Notes under the pieces: generated by a model
What the model was told of the DNA's origin: nothing
The model's database searches: none
The model's input: only the letters and a program-made list of their open reading frames with translations
Assembly: GCA_041649715.1 (NCBI GenBank)
Contig: JBAZMP010000002.1
Location: 132,964 to 196,963, forward strand
Direction: 5' to 3'
Source of the DNA: Patescibacteria group bacterium
GTDB taxonomy: Bacteria; Patescibacteriota; Patescibacteriia; JAXHNJ01
DNA length: 64,000 nucleotides
In this document: positions 6,391 through 62,501 of the stretch, piece by piece
How positions within the stretch are numbered: position 1 is the first letter of the stretch
Layout of the letters: the number at the start of each line of letters is the position of its first letter
Made by a program: the position numbers and the translations under genes

Positions 6391-6573
6391 AGGGTATCGG
6401 AATAGGTTAAAGATAAAAAAATAAGCGATTTTTTGCTTAAGAATATTCTAGCACAGACCCGTAAATTAGGCAAGCCTATCAGAGAAGGGAGGTAAAAAAG
6501 CGGGATGAAGGTTAGTTATTATCGGAAAAAAAGACTTTATTTATTCGCTAAAAAGCCGTATAATTGATTTACC

Positions 6574-7836
6574 ATGAACCGTTATTTTTTCATCCTCGGC
6601 CGCAATCAAGCCTTGTCTCTGGCGGAAAGCGCCGCTTTTTTTAGCCGCGAACAGATGGTTTTTAATCCGCTTTATTTAGGCCGGGATTTTTTGGTCTGGG
6701 AGACGGAAAATAAAATTGATTTGAAGGCACTGAATAACCGGTTGGGAGGAGTGATTAAAGCCGGAGAAATATGGGCGGAAAGGCCGAAAAAGCCGGATCT
6801 GCTCGCCGACCTTTCCGAAGCCCTGGGCTTTTCCACTATCAGTAAATTTCTGCCTGTCGGCGCAGAAAAATTATTCTTAGGCTTTAGTCTGTATTTTGAC
6901 GAGGGCAAGAGCTTCATTTATCTGCAAAAAGGCTTGGAAAGGCATTTTTTAAGCCTAAAAAAAGAGATAAAGGAAACCGGCCAAAAATTGCGCTTGGTCA
7001 CTTCGCGCGGCCAGACTCTTTCTTCCGTGGTGGTGAAGAAAAATAAATTATTGACGGCCGGGGCGGAAATCGTCATTTTTGTCACACCCGAAAAAATGTT
7101 TATCGGGAAAACTTCAAGCGTCCAAGATTTTGAGGGTTATAGTTTCCGGGATTTCCAGCGGCCCGGACGGGATATGCGGATCGGTTTGATGCCGCCAAAA
7201 GTTGCCCAAATCATGGTAAATTTAGCGCAGGCCCGGGAAAGTGAGGTCATCTTGGATCCTTTTGCCGGCTGCGGCACGATTTTGCAGGAAGCGATACTCT
7301 TGGGCTATAAAAATTTGGTCGGTTCGGATAATAACCCGCGGGCCTTAAGCCAGACCCGGCAGAATTTAGAATGGTTATGCAGAAATTATAAGATTGACGA
7401 GAAAAAAATCAATGTAAAATTAATGCCGATCGATGTCCGGCAGATATACAAAGACTTAAGCCCCAATTCAGTGGACACAATTGTGACCGAACCATATCTG
7501 GGGCCGGCGCTTGATGATCGACCGGGGGAAGGCAAAATAAGAATGGTGGCGGCTAATCTGAGCCAGCTTTACTTGGATTTTTTCACCGCCATTAAAAGAG
7601 TTTTGAAACCCGGCGGCAAAATAGTCATGATCTGGCCGGTTTTCCGCACTCCGGCCGGCAAGCAGTTTTTGCCGATCTTGGAAAAAGTTCTGGCCAAGGG
7701 TTTTGAAAAAATCAACCTGATTCCCGAAGTTTTTAAGGCCAACGATCTGGAGGAACTAACAAGCCGGGGCTCGATTCTATATTCCCGGGAAGACCAGAAT
7801 GTTTTAAGGGAAATTTTCGTTTTTAAAAATGTTTAG
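6574..7836 (+). CDS. SAM-dependent RNA (guanine-N2) methyltransferase, Trm11/RlmL-like, with an N-terminal RNA-binding region
   Basis: Motif I (VLDPFAGCGTILQEA) and a DPPY-like motif IV (VTEPYLGP). Confidence 0.6.
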   Translation: MNRYFFILGRNQALSLAESAAFFSREQMVFNPLYLGRDFLVWETENKIDLKALNNRLGGVIKAGEIWAERPKKPDLLADLSEALGFSTISKFLPVGAEKLFLGFSLYFDEGKSFIYLQKGLERHFLSLKKEIKETGQKLRLVTSRGQTLSSVVVKKNKLLTAGAEIVIFVTPEKMFIGKTSSVQDFEGYSFRDFQRPGRDMRIGLMPPKVAQIMVNLAQARESEVILDPFAGCGTILQEAILLGYKNLVGSDNNPRALSQTRQNLEWLCRNYKIDEKKINVKLMPIDVRQIYKDLSPNSVDTIVTEPYLGPALDDRPGEGKIRMVAANLSQLYLDFFTAIKRVLKPGGKIVMIWPVFRTPAGKQFLPILEKVLAKGFEKINLIPEVFKANDLEELTSRGSILYSREDQNVLREIFVFKNV

Positions 7837-29125: not shown

Positions 29126-29147
29126 ATTATTAATTGGTAATTATAAT

Positions 29148-29231
29148 GGTGCCCTGGGGGAGATTTGAACTCCCATCCCGTGAGGGACACGCTCCTGAAG
29201 CGTGCGCGTATGCCAGTTCCGCCACCAGGGC
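29148..29231 (-). tRNA. tRNA-Leu (anticodon CAG), type II with a long variable arm; CCA encoded
   Basis: Manual cloverleaf fold: acceptor gccctgg/ccagggc, anticodon stem cacgc/gcgtg with loop ttCAGga, T-arm gggag-ttcaaat-ctccc. Confidence 0.85.
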
Positions 29232-46475: not shown

Positions 46476-46557
46476 AGCCGGAAAATAAGCATATGTATTC
46501 TGTCTGCATATAAAAGTTATAAAGGCGGTTTGCAATTTAATAAGTAGCGGAAAGAAC

Positions 46558-46644
46558 GGAGAGGTCGCATAGTGGTCTAGTGCGCTTGCTTGGAGAGCAA
46601 GTAGACCTTCACCGGTCTCGCGAGTTCAAATCTCGCCCTCTCCG
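46558..46644 (+). tRNA. tRNA-Ser (anticodon GGA), type II
   Basis: Acceptor ggagagg/cctctcc, anticodon stem cttgc/gcaag with loop ttGGAga, long variable arm, T-arm gcgag-ttcaaat-ctcgc. No CCA encoded. Confidence 0.85.
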
Positions 46645-46752
46645 TTCTTCCCGCTACAATCTTGCCCTCTCCGCCAATTATTTTAAATAAAAAAATCGCA
46701 AAAGTCTTGCATTTTTCTGGCGGGTGTTTGTTAAGATAAATTAAGTCGCAAT

Positions 46753-52558: not shown

Positions 52559-52665
52559 TTGTCACCCTGAGGTGCGGAGCCTCGAAGGGTGACGCTTTGA
52601 TAAATACTACTGCCATACTTCGAGGCACTTCGCTTTCGCTCGTGCACCTCAGTATGACAGTATGG
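52559..52665. repeat. MITE-like element copy C
   Basis: Same arms as copies A and B. Confidence 0.6.
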
Positions 52666-55722: not shown

Positions 55723-56910
55723 ATGTCCAGGCAGGCAAAAAAGAAGAATAAATCAAAAAAATCTTTTAATAAAAAAAAGGCCGCTAAACCAAGAAAGACG
55801 CCGAAAGAGAAGTATCTAAAGGCGGATTTTCCCCGGGAAAAAATCGAAGATTTGATCAATAAGGGCCGTTCGCGCGGTTTTATCACCGAGACGGAGGTTC
55901 TTTATGTTTTGCCGGATTTAGAGGATTATTTGTTGGAATACGAGCAATTGATGGATAAATTTGAAAATCTCGGCATTGTCATCGTGGAATCGCCGACCTC
56001 TATTTTAGCGACAAAAAAAGAAAAGGAAGAATACCAGGAAAAATTCGGGCACGGGAAGGACGCCCGCCGTTTTGACCTGGGCGACATTTCCGATGATTCC
56101 ATCCAGATGTATTTAAGGGAAATCGGCAAAGTCCATCTTTTAAAGACGGAAGAAGAGGTCAGTCTGGCCAAAAGGAAGGAAAAGGGGGACATGGAAGCGC
56201 AAAAAAAACTCGTGGAAGCGAATTTGCGTTTAGTGGTGTCCATCGCCAAAAAATTTACCGGCCGTTCATTGTCCCTGTTGGATTTGATTCAGGAGGGCAA
56301 TATCGGTTTATTCCGGGCCGTGGAAAAATTTGATTATCGCAAGGGCTATAAATTTTCCACTTATGCCACCTGGTGGATCAGGCAGGCGATCACCCGGGCG
56401 CTGGCCGATCAATCCCGCACCATCCGTATTCCCGTTCATATGGTGGAGACGATAAATCGTTTCCAGCAGGTGGAAAGACAATTGATTCAGGATCTGGGCC
56501 GCGAGCCCCTGCCGGAAGAGATTGCCGCCGAAATGGGCGAACCGGTGGAAAAAATCCGCCACATCATCAATATTTCCCAGGATACTGTCTCTTTGGAAAC
56601 CTCGGTGGGCGACGAAGAAGAAGATTCCACTTTGGGTGACTTTATCGAAGACGTAAAAACCATCACGCCGGACCGGGTGGCCGCTTTACAACTCCTGAAG
56701 GATCACGTAAAAGATATTATCAAGGAATTGACCCCCCGCGAGCAGAAGATATTGGAAATGCGTTTTGGATTGCTTGACGGCGTGGCCCATACCTTGGAGG
56801 AAGTAGGCAAGGAATTCGGGGTGACTCGCGAAAGGATCCGCCAGATCGAGGCCAAGGCTTTGGAGAGAATCCAGGAACATCACGGGATGAGAAAGCTGAA
56901 GGATTACTAA
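55723..56910 (+). CDS. rpoD: RNA polymerase sigma factor RpoD (sigma-70)
   Basis: Region 2 ([13 protein letters not shown]), regions 3 and 4, and the classic dnaG-rpoD linkage. Confidence 0.9.
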
Positions 56911-56936
56911 TAATTAGTACCCAAAGCTCCGCGATA

Positions 56937-57008
56937 GCTCAATGGTAGAGCAACCGGCTGTTAACCGGTAGGTTGTCGGTCCGAATCCGACTCGCGGAGC
57001 TTTGGGTA
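56937..57008 (+). tRNA. tRNA-Asn-like gene (anticodon GTT) with an atypical T-loop (UCCGAAU: C at position 55)
   Basis: Cloverleaf tccgcga / ta / gctc-aatggta-gagc / accgg-ctGTTaa-ccggt / aggtt / gtcgg-tccgaat-ccgac / tcgcgga-g. U1-A72 as in E. coli tRNA-Asn. Confidence 0.55.
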
Positions 57009-57039
57009 TTTTATTTATTTATGGTATCCCTGGTTGCCG

Positions 57040-57232
57040 CTGCAACCGGGACCCCGGCGCGAAGCGCCAGGGGGAGCAGCCGGCTGTTAACCGGTAGAGT
57101 CTGTCCTGAGTGGCAACGAAGGATTGTCGGTCCTGCGCCCGAGGCGCACCCGCCTTGGGCGGGGAATCCGACTCGCCCCGTACCAAAGCGCTTGCGCTTT
57201 GGTACGGGGCTCGCGGAGCTGGCGAGATTATT
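57040..57232 (+). repeat. Degenerate duplicate of the 56937 tRNA (D-loop to 3' acceptor), interrupted by four GC-rich hairpin insertions
   Basis: Colinear blocks atggta...ggagcagccggctgttaaccggtag...ttgtcggtcc...gaatccgactcgc...ctcgcggagct with intervening perfect hairpins. One of them (cccgtaccaaagcgcttgcgctttggtacgggg) is flanked by a duplicated ctcgc. Confidence 0.6.
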
Positions 57233-57257
57233 TTTTTGTCGTCTAGCCAGAATTAAA

Positions 57258-57282
57258 AAGCCCCTTTTAGCAAAAGGGGCCT
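57258..57282. terminator. Bidirectional hairpin (gcccctttt-agc-aaaaggggc)
   Basis: Perfect 9-bp stem just past the stop of the minus-strand gene 57296-57622. Confidence 0.5.
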
Positions 57283-57295
57283 AGTTTTTGGGGGA

Positions 57296-57622
57296 TTATG
57301 CTCCCAATATCTGATGACGAGGCAAGAGCTTTTTCAGGAGAGCAGGCGTCGCATTTTCCAGCTGGAAAGCCTGGCGGAAAGGTTTCGCAATCTTGGGGTG
57401 AAAAAGGCTCAAGACTTCTTCCAGACTGCCTTCTCTTCGGGTTCCCCCGTGCTCGGGATCTTGAGCGATGGCCACGAAAGATTTTTCTTGCCGGGTGATG
57501 GAGATGGTAAGGCAAGGTTCCAGATTCCAGAGGGTATATTCCTCGATTTCGACCACTTGGCCGTTTATTACCTGGATGGTATCCGGTGGCAGTTTTGCCC
57601 TATCGGCTAATCCTGGTTCCAT
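57296..57622 (-). CDS. Hypothetical 108-aa protein
   Basis: GAGGAGG Shine-Dalgarno 5 nt upstream of the ATG on the minus strand; a promoter and palindromic operator lie upstream. Confidence 0.5.
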   Translation of the reverse strand: MEPGLADRAKLPPDTIQVINGQVVEIEEYTLWNLEPCLTISITRQEKSFVAIAQDPEHGGTRREGSLEEVLSLFHPKIAKPFRQAFQLENATPALLKKLLPRHQILGA

Positions 57623-57692
57623 ATTTCCTCCTCTCGAGTTTGGGCGGAAAGAACGAATTTATAAGGTATCTAGATGTTATTAAAATAAGATA

Positions 57693-57716
57693 CATTTGTC
57701 AATATCTTGACAAATG
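57693..57716. promoter_or_regulatory. Perfect 10-4-10 palindrome CATTTGTCAA-TATC-TTGACAAATG overlapping the -35 (TTGACA) of the promoter for the 57622 gene; putative repressor operator
   Basis: Perfect dyad symmetry. Confidence 0.45.
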
Positions 57717-57746
57717 CGGCTCATTTGCTCTAAGATGTAATTACTT

Positions 57747-57803
57747 ATGAAACTTGCGAAGCAAAATCTGAATAACAATAATAACCGTCTTTTGGCCGGG
57801 TGA
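57747..57803 (+). CDS. Putative 18-aa leader peptide MKLAKQNLNNNNNRLLAG (6 Asn codons), overlapping a 9-bp stem and followed by a terminator-like hairpin
   Basis: ORF read by eye. No convincing Shine-Dalgarno, so confidence is low. Attenuator-like alternative stems at 57793-57860. Confidence 0.2.
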   Translation: MKLAKQNLNNNNNRLLAG

Positions 57804-57970
57804 GTTTCATTTAATTTGTAATTATGAGGAAACCCGGCCAAATGAGCCGGTTTTTTTGTTTATAGCCGGGCGCCGCGCTCAGGGGTAGTTGAGCTGGTAC
57901 CCCGCATAACTCACTGTGTTCGTATGCGGGGCAGGCAACGCCGGTAATATATTTTAATGATTATTCCAGC

Positions 57971-58043
57971 TCTCCTGTAGTTTAATTGGTAAAACGCTGC
58001 ACTGTTAATGCAGAGATTGGAGGTTCGAGTCCTCCTGGGAGAG
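57971..58043 (+). tRNA. tRNA-Asn (anticodon GTT), canonical
   Basis: tctcctg / ta / gttt-aattggta-aaac / g / ctgca-ctGTTaa-tgcag / agatt / ggagg-ttcgagt-cctcc / tgggaga-g. Very close to E. coli tRNA-Asn. Confidence 0.85.
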
Positions 58044-58294
58044 CTGGGATAATCATTGTAGCACTGCTTGTCCCGTAGGAACAGAAAGCGACTTACGGGA
58101 TTAATGCGGAGACCGCTGGTTCGAATCCAGCCCCCTGAGCGCGGCGCCAGTGTTTCGTCTGTCCGTCGAAACCCTGAAAGGGTGAAGGCGGAAGCCCACC
58201 TGGAGGAGCCAAATATTATTTAAATATTTGGTAGAAAAGAAAAACGCCCCACGAAGCGACAATTGTTTTGTGCTTTGTCGGGCGTGTACTGAGA

Positions 58295-58510
58295 TCAGGC
58301 TTGTGCCTTCCCCTTTCTTTTTTCTTTGTATTCGTCGAGGTTTTCGGCGAGAAATACCCACTTTTCTTCGCCTGTATTTATGATGCCCCCAGATTCTTTG
58401 CGATAAACCGCTTTACAGGCCTTGCATGCTTTTACTCTTCCGAATCCTCCGCAACCGCCGCTTTCGAGATGTTCCCAATCACTTTTTCCACACTTTGGGC
58501 AAAATTCCAT
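58295..58510 (-). CDS. Small zinc-ribbon protein (71 aa; CPKC...CKAC)
   Basis: GGGAGGG Shine-Dalgarno ahead of the ATG; two CxxC pairs. Confidence 0.5.
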   Translation of the reverse strand: MEFCPKCGKSDWEHLESGGCGGFGRVKACKACKAVYRKESGGIINTGEEKWVFLAENLDEYKEKRKGKAQA

Positions 58511-58698
58511 GATTTACCCTCCCTTCAATTAGTTACAGTTAGGTGAATTCCATATCTAATGTACAGTTAATATGTAAATTTATTATATCTACATTAATTT
58601 GTCAAGTTCCCGCAGCTCGGCGCCTTTAGTTGACAAGTCTTATTAACCAAATTAAAATAGTTAATCAAGATAAGCCTTTTTTATTCAAAGGAGTGGTC

Positions 58699-58935
58699 AT
58701 GTCAAAAAAGAAAAATAGGGGAAGTCTCCAAAAGCTTGGCGGTACGATCGGCAGCCGGAAACACGGGAAAAGCGGCCATGTTCATAATGAACAGCATTTT
58801 ACAGGCACGAAGGCCGGGAAAAGGCAGCGCCGAAACCGGAGAAAGAGCAAAAAGGGAAGCGAGGCTTTTTCTCTCACGCGCAAGGAAAGGCACGCCAAGA
58901 GAAGAACGCACGTGAACAAATACCGGACAAATTAA
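58699..58935 (+). CDS. Extremely basic 78-aa protein (Lys/Arg/His-rich with no hydrophobic core); probable nucleic-acid binder
   Basis: AAAGGAG Shine-Dalgarno; a terminator follows immediately at 58942-58972. Confidence 0.4.
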   Translation: MSKKKNRGSLQKLGGTIGSRKHGKSGHVHNEQHFTGTKAGKRQRRNRRKSKKGSEAFSLTRKERHAKRRTHVNKYRTN

Positions 58936-59000: not shown

Positions 59001-59462
59001 ATGGACCCAAACGCCATTAATTTTTTAAGAGATTCGCTGGCTCACCACCATAATTTGAGGAATTCTTTGGACGGCAAAGCCTCTTTTTTATTGGCCATTG
59101 CCGGGGTGGTTTTCGGCTTAAGCGTTATCAGACTGGAAAAAGTCCAGTTTGTGGTGATTGCCATTACCGCTTTTCTGACCATTCTTTTGACGGTCTTCGC
59201 CGTCTTTCTGCCTTACCGCGGGAAAATGAAAGAGAAAATCGGCCTGATGTGCTGGTGGGGTTTCGCCGGAAAAAGTTATGAAAGCTACCAGGAAGAAGTT
59301 AATCGAGTTATTAAAACTGACGAAGCGATTGCCGACGAATATAAGAAGGAGATCTGGAATCTGGCCAATTATTCTCTAAGACCGAAGTCAGTCTTGCTGA
59401 AATGGGCGAGTTTCGTTCTGACGGTCGGGCTTTTGGCCGGGTTTGTTCTGTTTTTCGTTTAA
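59001..59462 (+). CDS. Small 3-TM membrane protein (153 aa) with an N-terminal amphipathic helix; resembles 2TM/SLATT-type effector architecture
   Basis: Helices ASFLLAIAGVVFGLSVI, FVVIAITAFLTILLTVFAVFL and ASFVLTVGLLAGFVLFFV. Sits immediately upstream of the primase-fusion gene. Confidence 0.45.
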   Translation: MDPNAINFLRDSLAHHHNLRNSLDGKASFLLAIAGVVFGLSVIRLEKVQFVVIAITAFLTILLTVFAVFLPYRGKMKEKIGLMCWWGFAGKSYESYQEEVNRVIKTDEAIADEYKKEIWNLANYSLRPKSVLLKWASFVLTVGLLAGFVLFFV

Positions 59463-59606
59463 ATAATAGAATCAAAATAGCCGAATTTTAGGGCTATTTT
59501 TTTGTTTGACTAAAAATCATTCTTATGGTAAGAAACATTAACGCCCTTTGACAGTTTTATAATTTTTCAAGTCACAAAACACAGAAATCTTCAAGAAAAC
59601 AAGGAG

Positions 59607-62501
59607 GTGGAGATGGAAGAGAATCATGGTTTTAACCTGGAAACGCCCCTGGCTGTGACCCCTGATGATATTAAGAGCATTTCTGATCCATCTCCGCGTT
59701 TTCGGAGCTGGGCCTGGCAAATGTATCTTCGCCGCGAGCTTAACCTGATCGTGGAGGCGGTCATCTGGTTGGGCAAAGCGGCCAATATCATCGAAGCCCT
59801 TGCTTATCTTAACCGTCTGACGGTTGAGTATCCGGAAACCGAGCTGAAGGTCGTGGTCAAGGATCTGGAGAATATCCGAGATCCCGGCCCGAAAATGGTG
59901 AAGCTAAGAACCCTCGTGAGAGGGATCAGAGCCAAAGCGAAGGATCCGCAGCTCACGCGCGGCGCCTTGACGCATCAGGCGGTCAATGACCTTTTTAGCG
60001 GTCGGCTGATGTCTTCCGGCGGGAGAAGAACCGACAAGACTTCTTCTCAGCTTGAATTGTTCAAGCTTGAGAAAAGCCGTCAGATTCTTCTTTTTGATGA
60101 ATTCGCCGAGGAGTCAGTTCAAAGCGAAAAATCGGAAAAAATGCGTCTGAGCCGCACCCGAGTGCTTAATCGGATTCAGCATCACTGGAAAGTGATAAGG
60201 TCGGCCATCGAAAAGCAGGGTTGGCCGGCCTGGCGACGGAAAAGGCGAAACGTCAATTGTCTGGAAAAATGGCTGGCGATTCTTTTCGGCGAACACGCCG
60301 TTAAGCTTGGCGCCGAAGTAGGCTTCGGCGAACACTTTAAGGTGTTGACCGAGCTGACTTGGGCCGCCGCCGCGAGCTATTGGCTGAGAGAAAGACAAAG
60401 GCCGATGATTTTGTTCCGGGAGATAAACGTGATTGCCTCGCGTCATCACCTTGGCGGCGGACGCATTGACGCTCTTGAGGTGCGTCGCATCGGCGGAAAG
60501 TTGCCGAATCGGAGGCAAGACCGGATACTTACCGAAATGAGCCGTAACCGCTATAAATCCGTCGGCCATCTGATCATGGAGCTTGGCAAACGCTTTGACC
60601 AGCCGGTTGAAGTGACGGTCATCGACTGGAAATCTTTGGTCGGCGACGTGGTCACCGGGGATAAAGAATGGTCTTCGACGGATTTAAAAAAAGAACCCCA
60701 ATTCGCCGATCAGGAACAGATGAAGAGGTATCTGACGCTGATCCCTCTGGATTGCTACTTGGTCGGTCAAAAAGGTGAGCTTTGGCGACCCGAAGACGTG
60801 ACTCTGCGCGGGGAACTCTGGTATTTGATGCCTGACCAGGCGCCCATTGTTCATGAAGTGAGCATGGCCGTCGAGCAAATGCAGGATTATTTTTTGAATT
60901 ACGTCGTGCTTGAGTGGCCCGAAGCTTCCCGGCGGGCTTTGGCCAGGGAAGTCAATAACATTTTCCTTCGCCATCTGGTCGAGATCCATGAAAAAGGGGA
61001 AAGTCGCCCGAAGAAAGGAGCTTTCGGCAATAATCATAACGGGAATCAGGCTCTGCCACTTTTCCCGGAAGAAAAAGTAAAAGTCGTGTCCGTCCGGGAG
61101 ATAATCCGAGCGCATCGGGATAAATATCCGCTCTTTGCCGACCGCCGGCAGATTCTCCAGATTGTGGGCAAGCGCCGCAAGACAGGGACCCATAAATTGG
61201 AGATGAATTACAGCAAGCTGCTAGAGGCCATGGCAAAAGGGGAGGTAAAAACCTACAGTTGGTCGGATCCCGCCCAGCCTTTTACCGTGCAGTGCCTGAT
61301 GGACGATCACCGGGATTCTGACCCTTCCATGCGTATTTATCCCGACTGGTTACGTTTCTGGTGTTTCGGTTGCCGCACGGGCGGAAGCATTGCCATTGAA
61401 TCCGTGCCGGGCGACCTCGCCAATCGACTGGCGCCAAAATGGCAGGAAATCAGCCGCCAGCCCACTAAGCTTGACTGGTCGGTCTTGCCGGTTATTCCCG
61501 AAGAACATGACCGGATTATGCGCCGCGCCCAGCAGTTGCTGGCCTTATCTTTTTGGCCTAGTCCGGCGGTGGAATATCTGCGTCAAGAAAGGAGAGTAGA
61601 TCCTTCCCTGGCTTATGAATACGGCGCGGGTTACGGCAATAACAGCTTGATCATCGGGTTGATGAGTGAAGGTTATTGCTTAGATGATCTGATCCGCTAC
61701 GGATTCGTAAAAATCACGCCTAATTTCTGGCGGGCCAGCAGTCTGATCGGATTGTTGCAGGAAGAGTTCGGTCTTTCCGCTCAGGAAATCACGCGCGAGT
61801 ACTTATCTAAGAAGACTCAGCGGACGGAAATTGGTTATCCCTATTCAGTTCTGGCTGGCCGCGTGACTTTCCCTTTGAAGCTTGAAGGCAAACACACCAA
61901 TTTCTATGGCCGGATAATTCCGCCTACAGAGGAGATGCTGACGCACATCAAGCTTTCGATGCTGGGCGAAAAAGTCGTCCAGGGCGGCTTCAATACCGAC
62001 ATTCTTTTGTCAGACGCTAAGGAGGTGAAATTTGCCGAAGCGGTCATTGATACTCTGACCTTAGCCCAGATGGGTTATCGGAACGTGATCGCTTTGGTCG
62101 GCACCGAGAATGTCGAGATTCTCAAAGCGGCGATCCGGGCCCGCAAGAATATTGGCTTGTCCCTTGATTACGACAAGTTCGGCCGGAAGCTGACCCTGAG
62201 GACGATCAGGCGTTATTTGGCCACGGTGAATTTGGGCGGCGAAAAAGTCTGGCGGGAAATTGATCAGTATGTCCGCGAGATTGAAGAAGCGATCAAGAGG
62301 GAGGAAACGGGAGAAAAAGAAGCTCTTCATTTCGGGGAATATTTCCGCCGGCTGGGTTACCTGGGGATTGAGGATTTCACCGCTAGATTCGTGGCTGACC
62401 ATCGGGAATGTCTTGGTCGTGAATTTGATTTCAACACCTGGTGGCAGAGATTCGGTTGTCAAAACGCACCTTTATCTTGGGAGGAAGACAATAACGCGTA
62501 G
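59607..62501 (+). CDS. 964-aa fusion protein: unknown ~560-aa N-terminal region + complete DnaG-type primase (CHC2 zinc finger, RNAP core, TOPRIM)
   Basis: AAGGAGG Shine-Dalgarno. CLMDDHRDSDPSMRIYPDWLRFWCFGCRTGG parallels the dnaG zinc finger at 53876. TFPLKLEGKHTNFYGRIIPP parallels LLFPIANVHGEIIGFSGRLI. A TOPRIM-like block is AVIDTLTLAQMGYRNVIALVGTE...SLDYDKFG. Confidence 0.6.
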   Translation: MEMEENHGFNLETPLAVTPDDIKSISDPSPRFRSWAWQMYLRRELNLIVEAVIWLGKAANIIEALAYLNRLTVEYPETELKVVVKDLENIRDPGPKMVKLRTLVRGIRAKAKDPQLTRGALTHQAVNDLFSGRLMSSGGRRTDKTSSQLELFKLEKSRQILLFDEFAEESVQSEKSEKMRLSRTRVLNRIQHHWKVIRSAIEKQGWPAWRRKRRNVNCLEKWLAILFGEHAVKLGAEVGFGEHFKVLTELTWAAAASYWLRERQRPMILFREINVIASRHHLGGGRIDALEVRRIGGKLPNRRQDRILTEMSRNRYKSVGHLIMELGKRFDQPVEVTVIDWKSLVGDVVTGDKEWSSTDLKKEPQFADQEQMKRYLTLIPLDCYLVGQKGELWRPEDVTLRGELWYLMPDQAPIVHEVSMAVEQMQDYFLNYVVLEWPEASRRALAREVNNIFLRHLVEIHEKGESRPKKGAFGNNHNGNQALPLFPEEKVKVVSVREIIRAHRDKYPLFADRRQILQIVGKRRKTGTHKLEMNYSKLLEAMAKGEVKTYSWSDPAQPFTVQCLMDDHRDSDPSMRIYPDWLRFWCFGCRTGGSIAIESVPGDLANRLAPKWQEISRQPTKLDWSVLPVIPEEHDRIMRRAQQLLALSFWPSPAVEYLRQERRVDPSLAYEYGAGYGNNSLIIGLMSEGYCLDDLIRYGFVKITPNFWRASSLIGLLQEEFGLSAQEITREYLSKKTQRTEIGYPYSVLAGRVTFPLKLEGKHTNFYGRIIPPTEEMLTHIKLSMLGEKVVQGGFNTDILLSDAKEVKFAEAVIDTLTLAQMGYRNVIALVGTENVEILKAAIRARKNIGLSLDYDKFGRKLTLRTIRRYLATVNLGGEKVWREIDQYVREIEEAIKREETGEKEALHFGEYFRRLGYLGIEDFTARFVADHRECLGREFDFNTWWQRFGCQNAPLSWEEDNNA

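What the first reader, a model, noticed from the sequence alone, without database searches (positions are those of the whole stretch)
57869..58148. A 17-bp perfect inverted repeat brackets the canonical tRNA-Asn together with two internal hairpins
GGCGCCGCGCTCAGGGG (57869-57885) is exactly complementary to CCCCTGAGCGCGGCGCC (58132-58148). Between the arms lie tRNA-Asn (57971-58043), a 9-bp hairpin (ccccgcata...tatgcgggg) and an 8-bp hairpin (cccgtagg...cttacggg). Just inside the 3' arm there is a tRNA-like T-arm (gctgg-ttcgaat-ccagc) with no cloverleaf partner. This could be an RNase III-type processing stem of a tRNA precursor, the terminal inverted repeats of a small tRNA-carrying element, or a split or permuted tRNA-like RNA.
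Basis: seen in the sequence. Interest (0 to 1): 0.55.

Follow-up and report, generated by a model that had tools for sequence, protein, structure and literature searches.

The report
Intact tRNA nested inside broken tRNA
The 17-bp inverted repeat is the closing stem of an asparagine tRNA gene that has been split open by insertions, one of which carries a second, intact asparagine tRNA gene, and the whole unit lies behind an asparagine-codon leader-peptide switch in an uncultivated CPR bacterium.

Summary
The 17-bp arms are the 7-bp acceptor stem plus a 10-bp leader/trailer extension of an outer tRNA-Asn(GTT) gene. The lone T-arm belongs to that gene. A relative (RpoD 94% identical) has the same promoter, leader and 10-bp extension around an uninterrupted tRNA-Asn at the same place.

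In the window this gene is interrupted twice. A 36-nt hairpin sits in the D-loop. A 157-nt insert replaces 5 nt of the anticodon stem-loop and carries a complete tRNA-Asn with its own 14-bp extension. Joining the outer pieces gives a valid tRNA only if the 5 missing bases are restored, so clean splicing is unlikely.

Extended acceptor stems are typical of this CPR clade (7 of 13 tRNAs, against 0 of 34 elsewhere) and covary strongly. Intact tRNA-Asn cassettes inside tRNA-Asn remnants recur in two relatives.

Upstream is a conserved 18-codon leader ORF rich in Asn codons, with antiterminator and terminator hairpins. This looks like a ribosome-mediated attenuator driving a tRNA gene.

Best reading: an Asn-starvation-inducible transcript that yields the inner tRNA, with the outer gene surviving as a shell. 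TIR-element, group I intron and tmRNA readings are rejected. Processing and regulation are inferred, not shown.

The parts
57707..57736 (+). Sigma-70-like promoter: TTGACA, 18-nt spacer, TAAGAT
   Evidence: 10 of 12 matches. The -35 and -10 boxes are conserved in L088, L095 and L097.
57747..57803 (+). Leader ORF MKLAKQNLNNNNNRLLAG* (6 Asn codons among its 18 codons). It starts 11 nt after the -10 box, so it is probably leaderless.
   Evidence: Homologous Asn-rich ORFs are read in L088 (MKIRQQNLDSNNNRLSAG), L095 (MKFTRQNNNNNNNNRYMAG) and L097 (MRFTRENNNDNNNRFMTG).
57788..57845 (+). Antiterminator helix (57788-57801 pairs with 57832-45). The leader stop codon lies in its 5' strand.
   Evidence: pair I11. 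Folds at -24.9 kcal/mol, z = -5.2. The core GGCCGGG:CCCGGCC pairing is kept in 4 sequences.
57834..57857 (+). Intrinsic terminator CCGGC-CAAATGA-GCCGG followed by T7. It shares its 5' strand with the antiterminator.
   Evidence: Folds at -9.9 kcal/mol.
57869..57878 (+). Outer tRNA: 5' leader strand of the 10-bp extension (GGCGCCGCGC)
57879..57899 (+). Outer tRNA-Asn piece 1: acceptor 5' strand TCAGGGG, TA, D-stem 5' strand GTTG, D-loop AGCTGGTA
   Evidence: Alignment to the intact orthologs.
57900..57935 (+). Insertion 1, in the D-loop: hairpin 1 (9-bp stem, 14-nt loop) plus CAGG. Its stem contains CCGCA/TGCGG, the sequence expected for the outer anticodon stem.
   Evidence: Absent from the L088, L095 and L097 orthologs.
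57936..57943 (+). Outer tRNA piece 2: D-stem 3' strand CAAC, G26, and the first 3 nt (CCG) of the anticodon stem
   Evidence: The 8-mer CAACGCCG is identical in L095 and L097.
57944..58100 (+). Insertion 2 (157 nt), which replaces 5 nt (CACTG) of the outer anticodon stem-loop. It holds an AT-rich linker, the inner cassette, and hairpin 2 (58072-58099).
57956..58057 (+). Inner cassette: tRNA-Asn(GTT) at 57971-58043 with a 14-bp leader/trailer extension (AATGATTATTCCAGC / GCTGGGATAATCATT). No CCA is encoded.
   Evidence: (pair I1). The tRNA core is 86% identical to the L097 Asn-2 gene.
58101..58139 (+). Outer tRNA piece 3: TTAA, anticodon-stem 3' strand TGCGG, variable loop AGACC, T-arm GCTGG-TTCGAAT-CCAGC, acceptor 3' strand CCCCTGA, discriminator G
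   Evidence: (family D2).
58140..58148 (+). Outer tRNA: 3' trailer strand of the extension (CGCGGCGCC)
58602..58624 (+). Solitary remnant of a tRNA-Asn-2 3' end (TCAAGTTCCCGCAGCTCGGCGCC). Its last 16 nt match the 3' end of the L088 gene.
   Evidence: (family D1, pair I14) compared.

Best explanation
The inverted repeat is the closing helix of an interrupted tRNA-Asn(GTT) gene. Seven base pairs are its acceptor stem. Ten are the leader/trailer extension that tRNA genes of this CPR (Patescibacteria, Kerfeldbacteria-like) clade commonly carry.

The gene is a second, separately regulated tRNA-Asn copy, called 'Asn-2' here. In relatives it is intact. In this genome it has a 36-nt hairpin in the D-loop. 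It also has a 157-nt insert in place of 5 nt of the anticodon stem-loop. That insert contains a self-contained tRNA-Asn cassette with its own 14-bp extension.

Inferred mechanism:
- Transcription starts at the conserved promoter.
- A probably leaderless 18-codon ORF with a run of Asn codons is translated.
- If charged tRNA-Asn is plentiful, the ribosome reaches the stop codon. It then covers the 5' strand of the strong antiterminator, and the weak terminator forms.
- If the ribosome stalls at the Asn codons, the antiterminator forms and RNA polymerase reads into the 280-nt nested unit.
- The unit folds into a rod: outer 17-bp helix with T-arm, then the inner 21-bp helix, then the inner cloverleaf.
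- RNase P, a 3' endonuclease and the CCA-adding enzyme release the inner tRNA-Asn, which is the functional product.
- The outer gene cannot give a tRNA. It survives as a base-paired shell that may help stability or processing.

Shown here: the sequence anatomy, the orthology, the covariation and the recurrence in relatives. Inferred: transcription, attenuation, processing, and which RNA is functional.
For: Orthology:
- L088 (RpoD 94% identical) has the same promoter, leader and terminator. They are followed by GGCGCCGAGC, an intact tRNA-Asn, then GCTCGGCGCC.
- L095 and L097 also have the leader plus an intact Asn-2 gene.

The outer gene is a disrupted tRNA-Asn:
- The outer pieces plus the 5 nt CACTG found in L097 give a perfect tRNA-Asn(GTT) in ARAGORN. 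Joining the pieces without those 5 nt does not.

The 17-bp helix is a conserved structure:
- 13 of 17 pairs show changes on both sides, and 94% of cells are paired. Slid controls give about 44% and 0 of 500 shuffles reach the observed values.
- Extensions of at least 6 contiguous bp occur in 7 of 13 clade tRNAs and in 0 of 34 tRNAs from other bacteria.

The inner tRNA looks functional:
- It scores 69.5 bits and has U1-A72, G73 and a GTT anticodon.

Recurrence:
- Nested units of the same design occur in L088 (6260-6520) and L095 (6286-6632). Both are closed by the outer acceptor stem plus extension.

Attenuator:
- Asn-rich leader ORFs are present in 4 lineages.
- The antiterminator folds at -24.9 kcal/mol and the terminator at -9.9 kcal/mol, and they share a strand.
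- The antiterminator pairing is conserved.
- Rfam gives weak matches to Trp_leader and Leu_leader at this spot.
Against: - There are no expression data, so read-through, processing sites and the fate of the outer halves are unknown.
- Only one genome carries this particular nested version, so covariation of the inserted parts cannot be tested.
- All outer stems are still perfect. A hairpin-decorated tRNA-Asn fragment nearby (57009-57170) is 91% identical to L087, while four-fold sites of rpoD are only 56% identical. The 'remnants' may therefore be functional RNAs rather than debris. That would make 'non-functional shell' wrong.
- Pairing of the leader with the 3' end extends the acceptor stem, which is reported to hinder bacterial RNase P (PMC9433436, abstract seen). 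The proposed processing order is therefore uncertain.
- The mechanism that placed a tRNA cassette inside a tRNA gene is unknown.
Confidence: 0.65

Rival explanations
1. The outer gene is a functional intron-containing tRNA. Hairpin 1 and the 157-nt insert (with the inner tRNA) would be removed at the RNA level, giving two tRNA-Asn molecules from one precursor.
For: - A relative (L093) has a tRNA-Asn copy with a true group I intron in the anticodon loop (Rfam RF00028, 61.6 bits against a gathering score of 50).
- All outer stems are intact.
- CPR rRNA genes are known to carry many introns (PMC10714607).
Against: - Joining the flanking pieces does not give a tRNA. Five nucleotides, including G34 of the anticodon, are missing and are not found at either insert border.
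- No group I intron match at E up to 10 anywhere in 56700-58700.
- ARAGORN's intron mode finds no intron-containing tRNA here.
- I found no bulge-helix-bulge motif at the junctions by inspection. Bacteria are not known to have the archaeal splicing endonuclease (my own knowledge).
Confidence: 0.08
2. The unit is a scar of site-specific integration events at tRNA-Asn. Mobile elements that target this tRNA repeatedly integrated and decayed. This left partial tRNA copies (attL/attR-like) and a captured foreign tRNA-Asn. The stems would have no present function.
For: - A second, solitary copy of the tRNA 3' end lies 460 nt downstream (58602-58624, family D1).
- Gene content downstream of the tRNA-Asn genes differs in every relative.
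- Nearby cargo looks element- or defence-like: a PycTM-like protein and a 964-aa primase-like protein.
- Other tRNA-Asn fragments lie around the first tRNA-Asn gene.
Against: - The insert is only 157 nt. It sits in the anticodon stem with a 5-nt loss and no duplicated core.
- No integrase is called within 10 kb downstream or in the 5 kb upstream.
- The outer helix covaries and stays perfect.
- The nested design recurs with the outer stems preserved in lineages whose synonymous sites are saturated.
Confidence: 0.17
3. The 280-nt unit is a small mobile element (MITE-like) with 17-bp terminal inverted repeats that carries a tRNA.
For: Perfect 17-bp terminal inverted repeats, small size, and an internal tRNA.
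Against: - The same arms, with one compensatory pair changed, flank a plain tRNA at the identical position after the leader terminator in L088. They are therefore resident tRNA flanks and not element ends.
- There is no target-site duplication.
- The 17-mer has no other copy in the window.
- A 25-nt pattern covering the T-arm and acceptor strand, and a 36-nt pattern from the inner tRNA, are both absent from viral contigs.
Confidence: 0.02
4. The whole nested RNA is a functional tRNA-like non-coding RNA, in the manner of tmRNA or the bacterial Y RNA YrlA. It would use the outer acceptor/T-arm module as a handle for tRNA enzymes.
For: - The acceptor stem, T-arm and D-loop sequence are retained while the D-stem context and anticodon arm are replaced, as in tmRNA's tRNA-like domain (my own knowledge).
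- The fold is very stable.
- Neighbouring decorated tRNA fragments are conserved.
Against: - ARAGORN finds no tmRNA, even at a relaxed threshold.
- Rfam gives no YrlA, Y RNA or tmRNA match in the window region.
- Close relatives have an ordinary tRNA at this locus.
- No Ro/Rsr or SmpB partner was seen among the neighbouring genes scanned.
Confidence: 0.08

Closest known systems
Disrupted tRNA genes of archaea and red algae (intron-containing, split, tri-split and permuted tRNAs; PMC4390854, PMC3978253, PMC10714607)
   Same: tRNA coding sequence is interrupted at loops (D-loop, anticodon region). GC-rich complementary flanks hold the parts together.
   Different: In those systems the pieces are rejoined at bulge-helix-bulge motifs to make a working tRNA. 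Here the organism is a bacterium, no such motif is seen, 5 nt are missing, and the insert is itself a complete tRNA gene.
Bacterial group I introns in tRNA anticodon loops (Rfam RF00028), present in the relative L093
   Same: Same gene family (tRNA-Asn of this clade) and the same region (anticodon loop) is the insertion site.
   Different: The window insert has no group I match at E up to 10. It holds a tRNA instead of a ribozyme.
Ribosome-mediated leader-peptide attenuators (trpL, hisL, pheL, leuL), including leaderless leader peptides in Deinococcus (PMC4007540)
   Same: A short ORF with a run of codons for one amino acid. Its stop codon lies in one strand of an antiterminator that competes with an intrinsic terminator.
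   Different: The regulatory codons are Asn, and the controlled gene is a tRNA-Asn gene rather than a biosynthetic operon or synthetase. Two full-text searches found no described case.
rRNA-operon processing stems (leader/trailer duplexes cut by RNase III)
   Same: Leader and trailer of a stable RNA pair into a long helix that encloses the mature RNA.
   Different: Here the helix is a direct coaxial extension of a tRNA acceptor stem (8-14 bp). Whether RNase III cuts it is unknown.
tmRNA tRNA-like domain
   Same: Acceptor stem plus T-arm plus a D-loop analogue, with the anticodon arm replaced by a long inserted domain.
   Different: No tag ORF, no encoded CCA, and no ARAGORN or Rfam match. The ortholog is an ordinary tRNA.

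Membership tests
tRNA (Rfam RF00005): inner gene | Cloverleaf scoring above the family threshold, with an anticodon loop | tested here: met
   69.5 bits against a gathering score of 29. ARAGORN calls tRNA-Asn(GTT).
tRNA (Rfam RF00005): outer gene | Contiguous, or cleanly spliceable, cloverleaf with an anticodon | tested here: not met
   Not detected as it stands. The joined pieces give no valid tRNA. Only adding 5 nt gives tRNA-Asn.
tRNA-Asn-2 locus of this clade (orthology) | Same promoter, leader and terminator upstream; same flanks; same T-arm and acceptor sequence | tested here: met
   Alignment with L088 and alignments with L095 and L097.
Group I intron (RF00028) | Match to the catalytic core model | tested here: not met
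   No match at E up to 10 in 56700-58700. The positive control L093 scores 61.6 bits.
Archaeal-type BHB intron or split tRNA | Bulge-helix-bulge motif at both junctions, and exact restoration of the tRNA | tested here: not met
   Inspection of the junctions CCG|GTAAT and GGGA|TTAATGCGG found 3-bp and 4-bp helices but no second bulge and helix. Five nt are missing. This was an inspection only; no dedicated BHB program was run.
MITE / TIR transposable element | Terminal inverted repeats that are absent from the empty site, a target-site duplication, and multiple copies | tested here: not met
   The arms are present around a plain tRNA in L088. No duplication is present. The unit is single-copy.
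tmRNA | tRNA-like domain plus a tag reading frame | tested here: not met
   ARAGORN tmRNA search at 80% threshold finds nothing. No Rfam match.
Leader-peptide transcription attenuator | Short ORF with a run of cognate codons | tested here: met
   Six Asn codons among 18, five of them consecutive. Runs of 3-8 consecutive Asn codons in the three orthologs.
Leader-peptide transcription attenuator | Mutually exclusive antiterminator and terminator, with the ORF end overlapping the antiterminator | tested here: met
   (pair I11).
Leader-peptide transcription attenuator | Read-through responds to the supply of charged tRNA | not testable with these tools
   Needs reporter assays or transcriptomics.
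RNase III processing stem | Cleavage of the leader/trailer duplex by RNase III | not testable with these tools
   Only the duplex itself is shown.

The most novel reading that the evidence does not exclude
In this CPR clade, tRNA-Asn genes would be modular, hairpin-enclosed cassettes that insert into loops of resident tRNA-Asn genes, giving tRNA-in-tRNA nesting. The invaded gene would be retained under selection as a double-stranded shell that serves processing or stability. The nested unit would be switched on by a ribosome-stalling Asn-codon attenuator. That would be the first tRNA gene known to be regulated by the charging state of its own product.
Probability: 0.25. Interest if true: 0.8.

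Novelty: new variant of a known kind. Interest (0 to 1): 0.6.

Why it matters
Disrupted tRNA genes are considered a hallmark of archaea and a few eukaryotes. In bacteria only self-splicing introns are known in tRNA genes. A bacterial tRNA gene enclosing another complete tRNA gene would extend that picture to CPR bacteria, because the design recurs in related lineages with the outer stems preserved.

The clade-wide, covarying extension of acceptor stems by leader/trailer pairing predicts an unusual pre-tRNA processing route. Such pairing is reported to hinder bacterial RNase P.

The Asn-codon leader peptide in front of a tRNA-Asn gene would be a new use of classical attenuation: feedback control of a tRNA by its own aminoacylated form. 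This fits organisms that may make Asn on the tRNA, although that pathway was not checked here.

All three points can be tested directly with metatranscriptomes of these populations.

Tried and rejected
- ARAGORN with intron and tmRNA modes and relaxed thresholds on 57800-58250 gave only the inner tRNA plus spurious low-score calls.
- Rfam, at gathering thresholds and at E up to 10, gave only the two tRNAs and noise. It showed no group I intron, tmRNA or YrlA.
- BLAST against phage records hit only the tRNA-Asn core.
- Viral-contig scans found nothing for the outer T-arm/acceptor pattern, the inner tRNA, or the two neighbouring small proteins.
- The genome-collection scan with RpoD gave only distant relatives (at most 69% identity) without the structure.
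- The metagenome scan with a leader pattern found only the contig already held as L089.
- The homolog of the neighbouring 108-aa ORF (P0002, 38% identity) lies in an unrelated context.
- I looked for an integrase downstream and found none within 10 kb.
- I considered a hammerhead or K-turn reading of the CCTGAG...CGAAGG hairpins. The hammerhead core is not met. It reads best as a hairpin with tandem G-A pairs. This is by inspection only.
- Target-site duplications at the hairpin inserts: one possible 5-nt case (CTCGC around 57172-57210). The L087 insert at the same position has none, so I drew no conclusion.

Full report
**1. Observation**

The arms at 57869-57885 and 58132-58148 are perfectly complementary over 17 nt (pair I5). 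The 17-mer occurs nowhere else in the window, even with 3 mismatches. The tRNA-Asn(GTT) at 57971-58043 is canonical. Both internal hairpins and the T-arm are as described.

The inner tRNA is itself enclosed by a 20-nt inverted repeat (pair I1). This extends its acceptor stem by 14 bp of leader/trailer pairing. The 301-nt segment folds into a nested rod at -140.6 kcal/mol, z = -7.5.

**2. Context and organism**

The window is part of a 255-kb metagenome contig. The neighbouring 108-aa ORF is identical to an NCBI protein from a 'Patescibacteria group bacterium' MAG. The closest RpoD sequences are from Patescibacteria, several of them named Kerfeldbacteria.

The gene order is dnaG, rpoD, a first tRNA-Asn ('Asn1', 56928-57000), a tRNA-like fragment region, and the 108-aa ORF on the minus strand. 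Then come a promoter and leader, followed by the structure studied here.

**3. What the arms are**

The decisive evidence comes from relatives fetched through RpoD homologs. In L088 (RpoD 94% identical), the same promoter, leader and terminator are followed by GGCGCCGAGC, an intact tRNA-Asn(GTT), and GCTCGGCGCC. L095 and L097 (RpoD 83%) also have the leader followed by an intact tRNA-Asn of the same type.

The window's 17-bp arms are therefore the 7-bp acceptor stem (TCAGGGG/CCCCTGA) plus a 10-bp leader/trailer extension of the ortholog of that gene. The 'orphan' T-arm, the AGACC variable loop, the TTAA-TGCGG segment and the AGCTGGTA D-loop are the remaining parts of the same gene.

**4. How the outer gene is interrupted**

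Relative to the orthologs, the window gene carries two interruptions:
- a 36-nt insertion in the D-loop (57900-57935, hairpin 1 plus CAGG);
- a 157-nt insertion (57944-58100) in the anticodon stem-loop.

The 8-mer CAACGCCG (D-stem 3' strand, G26, and the start of the anticodon stem) is identical to L095 and L097. This fixes the left border of the second insertion.

Joining the three outer pieces gives no valid tRNA. Adding the 5 nt CACTG present in L097 gives a perfect tRNA-Asn(GTT). The second insertion is therefore accompanied by loss of 5 nt, including G34. This argues against clean RNA splicing.

**5. The extended helix is a conserved, clade-typical structure**

I compared five sequences: the window outer gene, its three orthologs and the window inner cassette. 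In the 17-bp helix, 13 of 17 pairs change on both sides and 94% of cells are paired. Slid controls give about 44%, and none of 500 shuffles reaches the observed values.

Among ARAGORN tRNAs in loci of this clade, 7 of 13 have at least 6 contiguous pairs continuing the acceptor stem into leader and trailer. Examples are window tRNA-Ser at 46557 and Asn1. In loci from other bacteria the count is 0 of 34. The extension sequences differ completely between close relatives around an identical tRNA:
- CCCAAAGC in the window;
- CCCCGCCCGC in L087;
- GGCGCGAGC in L088.

**6. The nesting is recurrent**

In L088, an intact Asn1 cassette lies between a 5' fragment and a 3' fragment of an Asn1-type tRNA. 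Each fragment is interrupted by a GC-rich hairpin, in the D-loop and the T-loop respectively. In L095, an intact tRNA-Asn of a different sequence type lies between the same kind of fragments. In both loci the minimum-energy fold closes the unit with the outer acceptor stem plus extension, and in L095 this helix is 15 bp.

L093 has a tRNA-Asn copy with a genuine group I intron in the anticodon loop (61.6 bits). tRNA-Asn genes of this clade are therefore frequent hosts of insertions into their loops.

The inner tRNA of the window is 86% identical over its core to the L097 Asn-2 gene. It is a paralog or an import from a related lineage, not a phage tRNA.

**7. The leader is an Asn-codon attenuator**

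This sets the expression context of the finding. Eleven nucleotides after the -10 box an ORF begins: MKLAKQNLNNNNNRLLAG. The orthologs read:
- MKIRQQNLDSNNNRLSAG (L088);
- MKFTRQNNNNNNNNRYMAG (L095);
- MRFTRENNNDNNNRFMTG (L097).

The stop codon lies in the 5' strand of a helix (57788-57801 with 57832-57845) that folds at -24.9 kcal/mol. The 3' strand of that helix overlaps a weaker terminator hairpin (-9.9 kcal/mol) followed by T7. The core of the antiterminator pairing is kept in all four sequences. Rfam gives sub-threshold matches to Trp_leader and Leu_leader at this spot.

This is the anatomy of a his/trp-type ribosome-mediated attenuator. Leaderless leader peptides of this kind are described in Deinococcus for synthetase and biosynthesis genes (PMC4007540). 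Two full-text searches found no description of one that controls a tRNA gene or uses Asn codons. Regulation itself is inferred.

**8. Most likely working**

Asn-tRNA shortage stalls the ribosome in the leader. The antiterminator forms and the 280-nt nested unit is transcribed. The inner tRNA-Asn is released by the usual end-processing enzymes and receives CCA, since none is encoded. The outer gene cannot yield a tRNA.

I consider the outer gene a retained shell. Whether it is neutral or useful for precursor stability or processing is open.

Two facts warn against calling it junk:
- All outer stems are perfect.
- A neighbouring hairpin-decorated tRNA-Asn fragment (57009-57170) is 91% identical to L087, although four-fold degenerate sites of rpoD are only 56% identical.

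**9. Rivals**

- A spliceable intron-containing tRNA is unlikely.
- A TIR element is refuted by the 'empty' ortholog.
- tmRNA and Y-RNA readings find no support.
- Integration scars remain possible as the historical origin. A solitary tRNA 3'-end remnant lies at 58602-58624, and the downstream cargo is variable. This does not explain the preserved, covarying stems, and no integrase is nearby.

**10. Limits**

- This exact nested version is seen in one genome only.
- There are no transcript data.
- The insertion mechanism is unknown.

Noticed in passing
window 57707-57857; L088 about 6535-6690; L095 about 6690-6840; L097 about 6485-6625: A conserved promoter is followed by a probably leaderless 18-19-codon ORF rich in Asn codons (3-8 consecutive). 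Its stop codon lies in an antiterminator that competes with an intrinsic terminator. A tRNA-Asn gene follows directly. This is an apparent Asn leader-peptide attenuator controlling a tRNA gene.
   Followed up: partly
window 57009-57225; L087 6296-6720: Downstream of the first tRNA-Asn lies a copy of that tRNA from about position 18 to 73. It is interrupted by GC-rich hairpins in the variable loop, the T-loop and the acceptor 3' strand, and it lacks a usable 5' half. It is 91% identical between the window and L087, although rpoD four-fold sites are only 56% identical. Either it is a conserved RNA of unknown role or it was recently exchanged.
   Followed up: partly
window 57175-57210 compared with 56917-56927 and 57000-57010: The arms of the 17-bp perfect palindrome GCCCCGTACCAAAGCGC/GCGCTTTGGTACGGGGC contain GTACCAAAGC/GCTTTGGTAC. 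This is nearly the same as the leader/trailer extension around the first tRNA-Asn (GTACCCAAAGC ... GCTTTGGGTA). It looks like an 'empty' version of that cassette's stem.
   Followed up: no
window 50274, 50815, 51911, 51973, 52566, 57105; L087 2490-2530: A small hairpin with the motif CCTGAG-N(3-14)-CGAAGG (a stem with tandem G-A pairs) is a dispersed repeat, with 7 matches against 0.06 expected. In L087 one copy sits inside the loop of another. The orthologous window hairpin (52562-52592) is empty. One copy sits in the variable loop of the tRNA-Asn fragment.
   Followed up: partly
window 46543-46659, 56920-57007; L087 6203-6295; L088 6351-6441; L095 6464-6561; L097 6297-6391; L098 6289-6386: Leader and trailer of many tRNA genes in this clade pair to extend the acceptor stem by 8-14 bp, starting with position -1 paired to the discriminator base. 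The extension sequence differs completely between close relatives around identical tRNAs. The window tRNA-Leu (29147-29231), which encodes CCA, lacks the extension.
   Followed up: partly
L093 6357-6649: A second tRNA-Asn copy in a relative (RpoD 84%) carries a group I intron of about 220 nt between anticodon positions 35 and 36 (Rfam 61.6 bits).
   Followed up: yes
window 58602-58624: A solitary remnant of a tRNA-Asn-2 3' end. Its last 16 nt are identical to the L088 gene's acceptor 3' strand, discriminator and trailer. It lies 460 nt downstream of the nested unit, just before a second divergent promoter pair that shares the ATTTGTCAAG motif with the first.
   Followed up: no
window 57674-57736 and 58577-58658: Two divergent promoter regions share the palindromic motif TTGACAAAT/ATTTGTCAA (pairs I6, I20, I25). 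This may be a common operator. They flank the small ORFs at 57296-57622 and 58295-58510 (a Zn-ribbon-like 71-aa protein).
   Followed up: no
window 57925-57934 with 58069-58078; L088 6310-6317 with 6459-6466: A GGGGCAGGC-type segment upstream of the inner cassette can pair with a GCYTGYCC-type segment downstream. This forms a long-range helix that competes with hairpins 1 and 2. The same pair of motifs occurs in the L088 nested unit.
   Followed up: partly
window 59001-62501: A PycTM-like (Pycsar effector domain) 153-aa protein is followed by a 964-aa protein with a primase-like Toprim and zinc-finger region. This is possible defence or mobile-element cargo next to the tRNA-Asn hotspot.
   Followed up: no
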